This document shows, piece after piece, positions 618 through 12,420 of a stretch of DNA of 64,000 nt. The notes below the pieces were generated by a model, which made no database searches, was not told where the DNA came from, and saw only the letters and a list, made by a program, of their open reading frames with translations. This DNA comes from Heteronotia binoei (Eukaryota). The number at the start of each line of letters is the position of its first letter. Within the stretch, counting starts at the first letter, position 1. The translations under genes were made by a program, and so were the position numbers. The stretch is taken from positions 39,494,001 through 39,558,000 of the forward strand of contig NC_083237.1 of NCBI RefSeq assembly GCF_032191835.1. The letters are read 5' to 3'.

Positions 618-1316
618 ACAGCCACATGAGAAGAATAAGGGACAACTCTTTCCTCATCAAACCAGAAATCAAAAAGTGACAGGTGCCCCATTTTCCTATG
701 GGCACTGTGGTAACTGTTCTGATAGGGGTCTTGACCTCCTGATCGGTAAATGAATGCCAGATGTTTCCCAATGTAGTGGGATTTGTACTTTTACTGGGGG
801 AGAGTTGTTCCACTTCAAGAAAAACTACTTTTGCCCCTCCATTCTAACATCTCTGCCCCATTAATTGTAAACATCCACCATTCTTATGCCCTTTTCCACA
901 TTAAATCCTAACATTTTTCTAGCATCTTCAGTGCCAGTGGATTAAGAAAGCACCCTTTTGTTCTTTGCCAGTACACACAGCAAGGTTGCCCAAAGGACTA
1001 GTTATTCCAGTGTGCAGGCAAGCACAATATGAATCAGCTAACAAAGAAATTTTAGATGTGCAGGAAAAGAGCATAGCAAAAACTCCTTTTTATGCTTAAG
1101 ATTTCCTTTGCATCCCTCCTCACACACACTCGTCCACTATTTTCCCCTCCCTTCTGAGAAAAAAGGCCTAGTTTTTCCAGTGTGCAAGCATGCACAATGT
1201 AAAACAGCTAACACCATTTTAGATGTGCAGAGATGTGTCTGTTTGTTTCCCTCACACTTCAATGCCAAGAAATGTCATTGTACACTGTATTTGAAATGTT
1301 GCAGGCAACCCCTGGT
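618..1316 (+). repeat. Left terminal inverted repeat (699 bp)
   Basis: Reverse complement of 11700-12420. Manual comparison gives about 11 substitutions plus 15-bp and 7-bp indels. Confidence 0.95.
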
Positions 1317-1419
1317 TGTCACAGGGCATGTCCCATGCGACATTTAAATGCACCAATGAGTGCAGGTGGTGCTTTCTCATGGAACTCTTTAAAATAGGGG
1401 AGACCCCCAGCCCCACTCC

Positions 1420-1626
1420 ATGGCCTGTGTTTGCTGCTTTTGGTTTCCCGACTCTGTTGAACCATCATTTTATGAAGAAATGAATGCTGTGGAGGCCGAC
1501 GGGGTTCCTGCTTTGGAACAGGCTGTTTATGAGGATATGAACCCTGTGGAGACCGATGGGAGGGAAGCTGATGCCTGTGAGGAACCTGTTTATGAGGAGA
1601 TGATGCATCTCTCACCCAAAAGCTGA
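1420..1626 (+). CDS. Maverick accessory ORF, 68 aa: MACVCCFW N-terminus and three acidic YE(E/D)M repeats; probably exon 1 of a longer spliced gene
   Basis: ATG at 1420 with G at +4 and a CCAAT box at ~1353. Internal ~60-nt repeats encode FYEEMN, VYEDMN and VYEEMM. Removing one A from the A4 run at ~1618-1621 joins it to the acidic frame that ends at the 1697 splice donor. Confidence 0.6.
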   Translation: MACVCCFWFPDSVEPSFYEEMNAVEADGVPALEQAVYEDMNPVETDGREADACEEPVYEEMMHLSPKS

Positions 1627-2314
1627 GGGAAAAGATGAAGCCGGGGATGAGGAAGAAGAGGAATGGGCGCAGTGTGTTCAGAATTGGGTAGAGGATGTAA
1701 GTAGCACAAAGAGAACGAGGATGCTGTTGATAGCAGGGGTGGAAATATTTAGAATTGTGTTTTTTCTCTTGCAGATGGAGGATGAAGGATTGTATTGGAG
1801 ACTGATTGCTCAAATTATGGAATTGGCGCATAGTAGAGTGGGAACAAGCTGTTGTAAATTCTGTACAACGATAACATATTGTCAGGAGAGTAGTTGTGTG
1901 AAAAACGCGACACACAAAAAGACGGGGCAGGATNNNNNNNNNNNNNNNNNNNNNNNNNNNNNNNNNNNNNNNNNNNNNNNNNNNNNNNNNNNNNNNNNNN
2001 NNNNNNNNNNNNNNNNNNNNNNNNNNNNNNNNNNNNNNNNNNNNNNNNNNNNNNNNNNNNNNNNNTATTACCTAGAGATGGTAAGTAGCGGGGGGATGTG
2101 AGAAAGATCACAACGGTGTGGGGGACATGATAAACATCGTTGTTTTTTTCTCTTGCAGAACGACTATGACGATGTGAGGTGGGAACAGTTTATACAAATT
2201 GTGGAAGTTGCGCATGAGAAAGTGAATCCTTCATGCTGTGATTATTGTGGAGAAATAGCTCAATTACAGCAGGGAAACCCTAGCCACACAATTTTCAGTG
2301 TGTGGTTTTTATAA
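1622..2314 (+). CDS. Predicted spliced accessory gene: exons ..1696, 1775..2080 (contains the gap), 2159..2314, with a duplicated W-x4-QI-x-E-x-AH-x2-V-x2-SCC-x2-C module
   Basis: Two phase-0 introns of exactly 78 nt (1697-1774 and 2081-2158), both GTAAGTAGC...TTTTTTCTCTTGCAG. The exons after them share 13 identical residues in 37, in the same register from the acceptor. Confidence 0.65.
1934..2064. other. Assembly gap (N run)
   Basis: 131 N. Confidence 1.
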
Positions 2315-2676
2315 GGATACGGCTGGCCAGCACACGGGCGTTGTTCCTGTTTTGATGCGGTAGATTCTCTACCAAAAACCGTTGCATTTTTTTTATCAGC
2401 AGCAGATGTTAACTCAGGTTGTGGGAGATACAGATCCAGCTTAGTTTTCTCTTCCTCACCCATTCTGATGTGGGTGAGATATTTCTGAAGGAGAGAGGCG
2501 TAGGCCTTGGCCTTCTGGAATTCGGACAAATCCCCCCTCTCTAGAACCATTTTCATTTCATTGTCTAGAGAGTGCATAACCGCGTGTCTGATGGGTTCGC
2601 TCTCAGGGGGCCGCTGAATAGTTAGACGATCTAGCTGCCGGCTAGGGACCAGGTACATCTTCTCTGCATAATCCAT
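2306..2676 (-). pseudogene. Conserved Maverick hypothetical protein (KMxLVP...LDxEM...LQxYL type, probably the 'PM' gene), frameshifted and 3'-truncated
   Basis: MDYAEKMYLVP...LDNEMKMVL...YASLLQKYL. After the A-run at ~2386-2394 the alternative frame reads VENLPHQNRNNARVLASRIL, which resembles the usual continuation; similarity is lost at ~2306. The ATG overlaps the upstream stop (TGATG). Confidence 0.65.
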
Positions 2677-9596: not shown

Positions 9597-10117
9597 TCAT
9601 ACACACGCACACACAGAGTGAGATCTGTTTCGCAAACAAGGCATTTCTAAAACTCTGTCACACACAGAGATCTTTTTGGCAAACAAGGCATTTCTAAAAA
9701 CCAACCATTAAAATAACATAGAGCTGATTAATTAATATTCTTACCAGGCTGCTTAAACACAGTGGCTGCTTGGGGGGGCTGCTGGGGTGCCTGCTCTTCC
9801 TCGTCTGAAATAACCTCTGCCAAAAAAAACCCCAGATCAAATTAATTCAGAAAACTTCACATCATTACAACTTGTTTGTTTCATATTTTTTAAATTTACC
9901 TATGTCATTAATAGCGTATTGATTCAATTCAATCATGCTGCTAATAGCTGCTGTTTCTAACTCTTGTGATTCCATACACAGATCATCATCGAGGTAATCT
10001 GAAACCAGAATAATGTACACATTATTAAATGCCTATCTGCTGTTTTTTCTCTAACCCCCACAACACAACCCCCACCAAAATTTTCTCACCTTGGTAATCA
10101 TTGAGATGGGAAGCCAT
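9597..10117 (-). CDS. Predicted spliced small acidic protein (~82 aa): exons 10117-10090, 9998-9900, 9816-9745, 9646-9597
   Basis: Strong Kozak agcATGG. GT-AG introns of 91, 83 and 98 nt, all phase 1. Internal exons of 99 and 72 nt are open: MASHLNDYQDYLDDDLCMESQELETAAISSMIELNQYAINDIEVISDEEEQAPQQPPQAATVFKQP(EMPCLRNRSHSVCACV). The last exon is the least certain. Confidence 0.55.
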
Positions 10118-10440
10118 GCTGCTGTGTCCTGTTGTACCTTTAGACTGTAGGTATAAAGATGGGTCTTCACCCTCCTTAATATAGCTGATCAGAAAGAGGT
10201 CAGAAAATATACTGCTGATTGATCATGTAATGAGATCCTGTTTCCCCCCCTGTGACAAAGTTCTTTCTGTTTATTTATCTTATCAGGTCTAAGCAGAGAT
10301 TCTAATTTTAAAAGATTGTGTATAAGATTTATGTTTGATAGTTTTCTAATACAGCGTGTTAGTGGCTGTCACTTAAGCAATTATACATAGAATACATTAT
10401 GAAACAACATGTATTTTTTCCGTAACCTTCCGCTGGTGCA

Positions 10441-11640
10441 CATTGACCTCTGGCCCCCTGCTTTTAGAACACTTGGAAGCCAAAATAGTATGTTTTACAG
10501 CAATAATATAACCTGGAAACTTCTACCATGTTTGTTTTTTAAATAGTGGCTTGCAGAATCACTTCCTCAGACTTGTAGCCTATGAGAACTCTTGTTTTGA
10601 CAAGCAGAGCTAAAGTGTAAACTATTTATATAATGACCTCTCTCTGAGTCCTTTTGCAAAGAGGGTAGAATATAAAGCCAAAAGTATGTTAATAAATAAA
10701 ACAAAATTGCTCTGACACGCTGCTGAACTAAAATCATTTAAAACACTATTTACCGTTGCTTGTTTTTATTTAAAATTTTATTTTATCTACATAGTTTATA
10801 GGTTGCATACATTCAAGGCATGTTGCACACAGTCAAAGTACAACCACAAAAAAAAACAACGGGGCATTCTGTAACCCATGCAATAGGATTTTAGAAGTGT
10901 GGAACTGCCAGAAAATACTTGAAGTACTCACATGGTACATTTAGGCTGTTTCTACACATGGCAGAAAATCCTATCTTTGTTTATATTTAAAAGTAATAAT
11001 CTGCATTGCATATCTCTGTCACTTCTGTCCTGCTTTGCATTTTCTCAAGTCTTCTACAATCGTTTGTTTTTTAATGGGCACTGAAAACATTTTCATCCTG
11101 GAGTTGTCCCTGAAGTTCGAAAACAGCCATAAACAGCTATGGCATGCTGACTCTGGAAATGTATTGTGTGAGAACCTAACACATTTCTTGACCCCCTGTC
11201 TAAGTTGTGACAGCTTTAAAAACAACCATAATTGTTGGTAAGGTTTTTGCTGATGGGAGTCTAATACCATCTGTTAGTGGCATCAGTGATGCACTTCCCA
11301 GCCTCAGTAAGACCGTTGACATCTGGAGCTGACCTTTTAGACCTTGGAAGACAAAATACTATTTGTTTTTATAGCAATAATATAACTGAAAAGCTCTAGT
11401 TTGTTTTTTAAAAGCCGTGTGGGAGTAAGAACTTGCAGAAATATTTTCCCCAGACGTGGGCCTTGAGACCCTTGTTTTGACATGCAGAGCTAAACAACCA
11501 TATTTTTTGTTGATGAGAGTCTAACACAACAATGTCTTCTTACCTTAAAAATCAGGGACCTAGAGCTCTGACCTTTTTAGGGTTTGCAGGTCAAATGCTG
11601 TTCGTCTCACAAATAGCAATATATAAAATAGATGGAAAAG
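10441..11640. repeat. Three diverged internal direct repeats (~10441-10615, ~11315-11495, partial ~11560-11640)
   Basis: Shared blocks 'ctttt(t)ag..cttggaag.caaaata', 'agcaataatata' and 'cttgttttgaca.gcagagctaaa'. Confidence 0.7.
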
Positions 11641-11699
11641 CTATTTAAATCACAGACCAAAAGAACAAAATGTTCTTTGCATTTAAAAATGTTCTTTGC

Positions 11700-12420
11700 A
11701 CCAGGAGTTGCCTGCAACATTTCAAATACAGTGTACAACGACATTTCTTCGCATTGAAGTGTGAGGGAAACAAACAGACACATCTCTGCACATCTAAAAT
11801 GGTGTTAGCTGTTTTACATTGTGCATGCCTGCACACTGGAAAAACTAGGCCTTTTTTCTCAGAAGGGAGGGGAAAATAGTGGACGAGTGTGTGTGAGGAG
11901 GGATGCAAAGGAAATCTTAAGCATAAAAAGGAGTTTTTGCTATGCTCTTTTCCTGCACATCTAAAATTTCTTTGTTAGCTGATTCATATTGTGCATGCCT
12001 GCACACTGGAATAACTAGTCCTTTGGGCAACCTTGCTGTGTGTGCTGGCAAAGAACAAAAGGGTGCTTTCTTAATCCACTGAGAACAGGCACTGAAGATG
12101 CTAGAAAAATGTTAGGATTTAATGTGGAAAAGGGCATAAGAATGGTGGATGTTTACAATTAATGGGGCAGAGATGTTAGAATGGAGGGGCAAAAGTAGTT
12201 TTTCTTGAAGTGGAACAATTCTCCCCCAGTAAAAGTACAAATCCCACTACATTAGGAAACATCTGGCATTCATTTACCGATCAGGAGGTCAAGACCCCTA
12301 TCAGAACAGTTACCACAGTGCCCATAGGAAAATATCTGGTATCCCCTTGGGGCACCTGTCACTTTTTGATTTCTGGTTTGATGAGGAAAGGGTTGTCCCT
12401 TATTCTTCTCACATGGCTCT
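11700..12420 (-). repeat. Right terminal inverted repeat (721 bp)
   Basis: Reverse complement of 618-1316. Ends ...GGCTCT, which reads 5'-AGAG inward. Confidence 0.95.

What the first reader, a model, noticed from the sequence alone, without database searches (positions are those of the whole stretch)
618..12420. Endogenous Maverick/adintovirus reduced to a replication and packaging block plus two accessory arms
Seen: paired ~700-bp TIRs, pPolB, ATPase, a PW-like and a PM-like gene on one strand; the total is only ~11.8 kb. Known: complete vertebrate Mavericks also carry a retroviral-like integrase, an adenain-like protease and major and minor capsid genes. None is recognisable here, and no 6-bp TSD is present. 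Inference: this is either a post-insertion deletion derivative or a naturally non-autonomous (satellite-like) lineage that was replicated and mobilised in trans.
Basis: partly seen in the sequence, partly recalled or inferred. Interest (0 to 1): 0.7.

Follow-up and report, generated by a model that had tools for sequence, protein, structure and literature searches.

The report
Broken Maverick virus copy in lizard
This is a decaying copy of a virus-like element in a lizard chromosome that lost its integration and capsid genes in one deletion, which is ordinary; the unexpected part is that its polymerase gene appears to be spliced.

Summary
The 11.8-kb element is real: ~700-bp inverted repeats (620-1316, 11700-12418) enclose pPolB, ATPase and two small genes; no integrase or capsid homology was found. 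By the published gene order the small genes are PM and a PZ cut after about residue 119 of 243, not PW and PM. The cut is a sharp junction at 2328-2330. A ~95%-identical RNA contig runs 752 nt past it into sequence absent here, so undeleted siblings exist; no listed contig bridges it in 3 runs. The kept genes are damaged: ATPase and PZ are frameshifted, and pPolB motif C fails a pattern held by 5 of 5 relatives. A gharial fossil with the same gene pattern is already catalogued. Best reading: a one-off deleted, decaying copy, not a satellite lineage. Copy number could not be counted (no genome held). Two points remain of interest. The right 'accessory arm' holds in-frame GT-AG leader exons spliced onto pPolB in sibling RNA (2 of 3 runs, one study), although vertebrate Maverick genes are described as intronless. 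Both ends lack the AGTAGT motif and a TSD, which is unexplained.

The parts
620..1316 (+). Left inverted repeat (TIR); no AGTAGT-type end motif, no TSD; internal 72-bp duplication 992-1063 / 1162-1230
1393..1696 (+). Left-arm accessory sequence: acidic frame 1393-1626 with three YxxM motifs about 20 aa apart, then a frame ending at a GTAAG donor at 1697
   Evidence: 1 of 10,000 shuffles reach three motifs, but they come from one internal repeat; function inferred only
1775..2080 (+). Predicted accessory exon A (W...CCxxC), interrupted by the N gap, donor at 2081
1934..2065 (.). Assembly gap, 132 N, 262 nt away from the junction
2159..2327 (+). Predicted accessory exon B (W...CCxxC), running up to the junction
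2328..2330 (.). Deletion junction between left arm and PZ; about 3 nt of inferred microhomology; lies in a 10-bp palindrome (2322-2331)
   Evidence: PZ likeness to P0001 ends here; X1 record 1 leaves the window here; 12 such palindromes in the element
2328..2676 (-). 5' half of PZ, frameshifted near 2375, cut after about residue 119 of 243
   Evidence: 71% identity to P0001 residues 1-101, further likeness in another frame to 2328; name from gene order in PMC8097293
2676..3005 (-). PM (109 aa, basic, hydrophobic C-terminus), frame open
   Evidence: position between atp and pz (PMC8097293); ESM Atlas 0.96 to unnamed 105-110 aa clusters, two labelled Preplasmiviricota, but recognition below the tool's threshold
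3057..3729 (-). A32-like packaging ATPase, frameshifted near 3220
   Evidence: Pox_A32 E 0.009, below cut-off; L003 ATPase E 6e-5
3731..7914 (-). pPolB main exon, frame open, catalytic motif C damaged
8142..8260 (.). Host SINE-like fragment inside the long leader intron; the same piece is joined to Maverick intron in X1 record 5
   Evidence: (74-81% to two copies elsewhere in the window)
9745..9816 (-). Leader exon 3 (72 nt), spliced to 7914
   Evidence: GT-AG and phase; joint 7914/7910-9745 in X1 and X2
9900..9998 (-). Leader exon 2 (99 nt)
   Evidence: joint 9816-9900 in X1 and X2
10090..10727 (-). Leader exon 1, start codon at 10117; 5' extent taken from X1 record 6
   Evidence: its own joint is not among the 15 of 23 joints shown
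10443..11494 (.). Internal direct duplication, 10443-10614 and 11316-11494, 72% identical
11700..12418 (-). Right inverted repeat (TIR)

Best explanation
A single endogenous copy of an ordinary gecko-lineage Maverick of about 17 kb lost roughly 5 kb in one internal deletion, from mid-PZ through the whole opposite-strand module (pro, MCP, pw, mCP, int), probably by end-joining repair at about 3 nt of microhomology, and is now decaying. Shown: the junction, the absence of detectable module-2 homology, the damage, and an undeleted sibling. Inferred: the size and content of the lost piece, the repair route, and that the copy is unique. Whether the deletion came before or after insertion is not fixed. 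In the parent family the right arm is the promoter and spliced 5' leader of the pPolB message (about 66 extra codons), as shown in sibling RNA contigs.
For: PZ likeness stops at 2328. X1 record 1 (2,699 nt, 93 differences in 1,947) lies on 2328-4267 and has 752 further nt unlike the window; only that contig covers 2398. Full-length PZ and pPolB relatives each come from a 16,744-nt contig, probably the same one; intact vertebrate elements average 16,862 bp. Integrase profile of 120 sequences finds the window's Gypsy integrase (E 6.8e-13) and nothing in the element; capsid profile of 150 sequences gives best E 2.4. 0 of 62 arm frames reach a Pfam cut-off. pPolB differs at 34 of 479 columns invariant in 5 relatives, about twice the rate of its two nearest relatives (44/503 vs 24/504, p 0.012; 40/496 vs 17/497, p 0.002), with 11 changes in residues 1245-1310 (scan p 0.0008). 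Precedents: 96% of vertebrate loci are degraded; a TIR-bearing gharial fossil has exactly PZ+ATP+pPOLB; placental fossils lost the genes downstream of PZ; Anolis shows no non-autonomous copies.
Against: Copy number of the junction was not counted. A plain post-insertion deletion should leave the end motifs and a 6-bp TSD, as the gharial and P. picta fossils do; here both are absent although the TIRs differ by only 1.6%. The 752 nt beyond the junction were not displayed, so their identity as PZ is inferred. The three more distant relatives differ at as many or more conserved columns than the window does (47, 73, 51 vs 43, 49, 42). The capsid profile had no vertebrate positive control, and protease, minor capsid and PW were tested only with single distant queries.
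Confidence: 0.72

Rival explanations
1. Hybrid of two copies: the left end (TIR and left arm) and the rest come from different insertions, joined by a real deletion or recombination between neighbouring copies, or by a scaffold mis-join at the N gap.
For: One event would explain both the missing module and the mismatched flanks; the two inverted repeats stop within a few bases of each other; a 132-N gap separates the left TIR from the rest.
Against: It does not explain the missing end motif on both sides. Both sides of the gap belong to the same repeated exon-intron unit. It needs a second, very similar copy nearby.
Confidence: 0.15
2. Non-autonomous, satellite-like lineage, or a defective genome formed during virus replication, kept by its two termini and spread by a helper's polymerase, capsid and integrase.
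For: Both inverted repeats and both arms are kept; the pPolB frame stays open over 1,400 codons; loss of exactly one module looks tidy. Absence of a TSD would fit capture of a linear defective genome by host repair (inference).
Against: The cut is mid-gene. A satellite has no need of a damaged 4.2-kb pPolB. Integration by a helper integrase should give a TSD. No listed contig bridges the junction in 3 runs, though only X1 covers it and 641 pieces were not shown. 0 matches of the junction in viral contigs (a weak test).
Confidence: 0.08
3. Nothing is lost: module 2 hides in the assembly gap or is unrecognised in the arms.
For: There is an N gap in the element, and the module-2 queries were distant relatives.
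Against: The gap is 262 nt from the junction and sits inside an accessory exon. The junction is within contiguous sequence. The left arm is 1,011 nt; the right arm's longest stop-free frame is 98 aa, against 432 and 466 aa for integrase and capsid in L003, and its introns are RNA-supported.
Confidence: 0.05

Closest known systems
Vertebrate Mavericks/Polintons (Barreat and Katzourakis 2021, PMC8097293); beta adintoviruses (PMC8502044)
   Same: TIR length within 46-1,447 bp; module 1 order ppolb-atp-pm-pz pointing inward; accessory regions at both ends.
   Different: Module 2 (int, mcp, pw, Mcp, pro) and half of pz absent; no 6-bp TSD; no (AGT)2 or (AG)3 ends; pPolB has a spliced leader, whereas that paper saw no introns in intact elements.
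Paroedura picta LOC143839922 (XP_077198782.1, XP_077198779.1) and unnamed P0004
   Same: 67% and 66% identity over the whole main exon. The two P. picta isoforms differ by one residue at position 83, where likeness to the window's main exon begins, as a tandem splice acceptor would give.
   Different: They keep the polymerase motifs; their leader is not clearly similar in sequence to the window's leader exons.
TIR-bearing, internally depleted fossils in the supplement of PMC8097293, such as Gavialis NW_017729027.1 (14,785 bp; PZ, ATP, pPOLB only), Ophiophagus AZIM01002692.1 (11,274 bp), Crotalus PDHV01000658.1 (6,250 bp)
   Same: Paired TIRs around a partial gene set; the gharial row has the same presence pattern.
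   Different: Those keep AGTAG-type ends and matching TSDs; a zero in that table can mean decay rather than deletion.
Adenovirus E2 unit (recalled, not tested)
   Same: Short 5' leader exons spliced across a long intron onto the replication gene.
   Different: Here terminal protein and polymerase remain one frame (PMC11161782 passages); no sequence likeness was tested.

Membership tests
Vertebrate Maverick/Polinton | Protein-primed family B polymerase | tested here: met
   PF03175 E 1.5e-41; 53-67% identity to four reptile relatives over most of its length; motif C damaged
Vertebrate Maverick/Polinton | Packaging ATPase, pm and pz in order after ppolb | tested here: met
   pm and pz named by position from PMC8097293; ATPase frameshifted, pz truncated
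Vertebrate Maverick/Polinton | Long terminal inverted repeats | tested here: met
Vertebrate Maverick/Polinton (intact) | Retroviral-like integrase | tested here: not met
   120-sequence profile: Gypsy control E 6.8e-13, no hit in 620-12418; no rve hit in 62 arm frames
Vertebrate Maverick/Polinton (intact) | Double jelly-roll major capsid | tested here: not met
   150-sequence profile best E 2.4; PF21738 hits L003 but no arm frame; no vertebrate control
Vertebrate Maverick/Polinton (intact) | Protease, minor capsid, PW | tested here: inconclusive
   single distant queries from L003, labelled by position and size, best E 0.37-0.94; no room or open frames in the arms
Vertebrate Maverick/Polinton (intact) | 6-bp TSD and (AGT)2/(AG)3 end motifs | tested here: not met
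Non-autonomous Polinton family | Several dispersed copies share one internal junction | not testable with these tools
   no genome held; not bridged in 3 RNA runs, of which one covers the place
Non-autonomous Polinton family | Intact ends and TSD from integration in trans | tested here: not met

The most novel reading that the evidence does not exclude
The element is a defective-interfering-type Maverick genome: an internal deletion made during virus replication, keeping both ends and both spliced early units, copied by a helper and captured in the germ line by host repair without integrase (hence no TSD and trimmed ends), possibly at several loci. It would be a satellite lineage of a vertebrate Maverick with adenovirus-like spliced early transcription.
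Probability: 0.1. Interest if true: 0.65.

Novelty: new member of a known kind. Interest (0 to 1): 0.3.

Why it matters
As a deleted fossil it adds little: most vertebrate Mavericks are broken. The by-product is more useful. If squamate Mavericks splice short leader exons onto pPolB (I put this near 0.8 for this family), their 'accessory regions' are partly promoter and leader exons, ORF-based annotation gives the wrong N-terminus, and transcription of these never-cultured viruses becomes testable in existing RNA data. A host SINE piece shared with a ~5%-divergent sibling suggests that the lineage kept copying itself after a stay in a host chromosome.

Tried and rejected
Host genome: none held, so no copy count or empty-site search. 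Related loci: single-protein scans of viral contigs gave 0 loci; the alignment gave 1 viral and 3 metagenome loci at 32-39% identity, none a close relative. Junction 24-mer: 0 matches in viral contigs. Leader exons against the P. picta leader: exon 3 weak (114 and 51 of 2,000 shuffles), exons 1 and 2 not above chance, so protein likeness is not claimed. Direction of differences to the RNA contigs: the window is A/T-shifted against X1 (163 vs 91, p 7e-6) but not against X2 (56 vs 70) or X3 (53 vs 36, p 0.09); not used as support. Low RNA cover of most of the TIR says nothing about its presence. The 5-mer flanking repeat (610-614 / 12417-12421) and the inward-facing ACTACT/AGTAGT at 824/12194 are within chance. 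ESM Atlas on exon A: best 0.88, no family. The Adeno_PX cluster for PM at 0.75 is a lead only. Rfam: 0 matches in 1-14000. Earlier findings: 3 look-ups, none returned. No LxCxE motif seen by eye in the arm frames. No structure or complex prediction was run; neither would separate the rivals.
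Full report
What is there. The window is vertebrate DNA with olfactory-receptor-like ORFs (seven-helix receptor motifs recognised from memory) and retroelements. The nearest named relatives of the element's polymerase are from a gecko, then anole, turtle and bearded dragon, so the host is probably a gecko (inference). Inverted repeats lie at 620-1316 and 11700-12418, 686 of 719 columns identical, with 11 mismatches and two indels. Between them, on the minus strand, are a 1,400-codon pPolB frame (PF03175, E 1.5e-41), an A32-like ATPase, a 109-aa ORF and a 138-aa ORF. 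A gap of 132 N lies at 1934-2065.

Gene names. PMC8097293 (parts 1-3 of 8 read, plus passages and supplement parts 28-29 of 43) puts ppolb, atp, pm, pz in one module and int, mcp, pw, Mcp, pro in the other. The 109-aa ORF is therefore PM and the next one PZ; PW is lost with the second module. This is a positional call. The 138-aa ORF matches residues 1-101 of a 243-aa protein at 71%, shifts frame near 2375, resembles that protein to about residue 119 and stops resembling it at 2328.

The junction. Three RNA runs of one study, kept as contigs, were laid on 2066-12500 (620-2065 was left out). X1 record 1 lies on 2328-4267 with 93 differences in 1,947 nt and has 752 more nt that fit nothing here. 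Only that contig covers 2398, while another X1 contig reaches at least 2330 from the left, which suggests about 3 nt of microhomology. X2 and X3 have no depth in that bin; 641 pieces, 145 loose ends and 8 joints were not shown. So an undeleted sibling exists and the joined form was not seen, on thin sampling. The junction is in contiguous sequence 262 nt from the gap, and both sides of the gap belong to one repeated exon-intron unit.

The loss. A profile of 120 Polinton-type integrases found the Gypsy integrase elsewhere in the window (E 6.8e-13) and nothing in the element; a profile of 150 capsid proteins gave best E 2.4, without a vertebrate control; distant single queries for protease, minor capsid and PW gave E 0.37 or worse, while ATPase and pPolB from the same locus were found. 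Of 62 stop-free arm frames of 36 aa or more, none reached a Pfam cut-off and one had E 0.047. The left arm is 1,011 nt and the right arm's longest frame 98 aa. Intact elements average 16,862 bp and relatives of PZ and pPolB come from a 16,744-nt contig, so about 5 kb is missing.

Decay. The ATPase shifts frame near 3220. pPolB differs at 34 of 479 columns invariant in five relatives, 11 of them in residues 1245-1310 around motif C (scan p 0.0008); three of five motif patterns held by 5 of 5 relatives fail, the catalytic motif C among them. The excess is about twofold over the two nearest relatives but not over the three distant ones. CpG observed/expected is 0.58 in the core against 0.15 in the flank, and the TIRs differ by 1.6%, so the insertion is young but probably inactive (inference).

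The right arm is a spliced leader. The first ATG of the long frame (7933) lies in a polypyrimidine tract before an AG at 7915. Upstream are a start codon at 10117 and exons ending at 10090, 9998-9900 and 9816-9745, all GT-AG and all in phase with pPolB, adding about 66 codons. Joints 7914-9745 and 9816-9900 with CT..AC ends appear in X1; X2 shows 9816-9900 and 7910-9745 with four other letters between. These contigs come from siblings, not from this locus, and from one study. In the P. picta annotation two isoforms differ by one residue exactly where likeness to the main exon starts, which fits the same acceptor. Protein likeness of the leaders is weak. PMC8097293 states that no introns were seen in intact elements. 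'splic' does not occur in PMC8502044, PMC11161782 or PMC9683012 (passage searches); three library searches (listings, with passages of two hits) showed no report of spliced Maverick pPolB. The library lacks most subscription papers, and bioRxiv supplements were closed.

The left arm points inward on the plus strand and has an acidic frame with three YxxM motifs and two paralogous exons with CCxxC. By symmetry it may be the early unit or leader of the lost module (inference). YxxM as a PI3K-binding motif is recalled, not tested. PMC8502044 (passages) describes cysteine-motif 'oncoid' accessory genes in adintoviruses.

The ends are the unexplained part. Squamate elements in the supplement mostly end in AGTAGT or AGTAGA, many with matching TSDs, a P. 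picta fossil among them. Here neither is present. End trimming at a repair-mediated insertion, a hybrid of two copies, or a family-specific end are all open.

Comparison and verdict. TIR-bearing fossils with partial gene sets are common in the two supplement parts read, and one gharial row has exactly PZ, ATP and pPOLB. Placental fossils lost the genes downstream of PZ (PMC9683012 passage). In Anolis no non-autonomous copies were apparent (PMC3014272 passages). A search for 'nonautonomous Polintons' gave 0 papers; I recall non-autonomous zebrafish Polintons from Repbase-era work but could not confirm it. It works like, and descends from, a vertebrate Maverick, but fails the tests for an intact one. 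Best explanation: one-off deletion and decay (0.72); hybrid of two copies (0.15); satellite lineage (0.08); artefact (0.05). Interest 0.3, most of it from the spliced leader.

Noticed in passing
window 25459-31330: Very young Ty3/Gypsy LTR retrotransposon on the minus strand: LTRs 99.8% identical over 416 nt, 5-bp TSD, gag with a G/P-rich 12-bp repeat, RT, integrase and chromodomain in shifted frames.
   Followed up: partly
window 20136-21125, 37258-38302, 47656-48699, 51264-52301, 53811-54782: Olfactory-receptor-like gene cluster; some copies open, others split; 47.6-48.7 kb and 51.2-52.3 kb are 91-95% duplicates.
   Followed up: no
window 57650-62020: Near full-length LINE with ORF1 and fragmented ORF2 on the plus strand.
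   Followed up: no
window 8142-8260: Host SINE-like piece in the leader intron, also present in X1 record 5 with 3 differences in 107 nt, joined to Maverick intron; suggests capture before the copies diverged.
   Followed up: partly
window 7509-7914: X2 record 13 (depth 45, against 0-4 over the rest of pPolB) leaves the window at 7509 with 294 unplaced nt, next to a GTAAG at 7513; may be a short alternatively spliced product of the leader.
   Followed up: partly
window 10870-11660: RNA contigs and joints 10992-11131 and 10992-11619 hint at a second, outward plus-strand transcript in the right arm.
   Followed up: no
window 9745-9816: Leader exon 3 encodes a hydrophobic-acidic stretch resembling a SUMO-interacting motif (recalled pattern); similar stretches occur in P0003, P0005 and P0006, not in P0004, P0007, P0008.
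   Followed up: partly
P0005: A P. picta gene model fuses ephrin receptor exons to a Maverick pPolB at this same leader exon; mis-annotation or read-through splicing.
   Followed up: no
window 33390-34116: Frames resembling a DIRS-type retroelement fragment (recalled likeness).
   Followed up: no
window 63226-63354: Second N gap, 129 nt.
   Followed up: no
L003 1398-12891: Polinton with integrase fused to a phospholipase A2-like domain, a double jelly-roll capsid and pPolB in two frames.
   Followed up: partly
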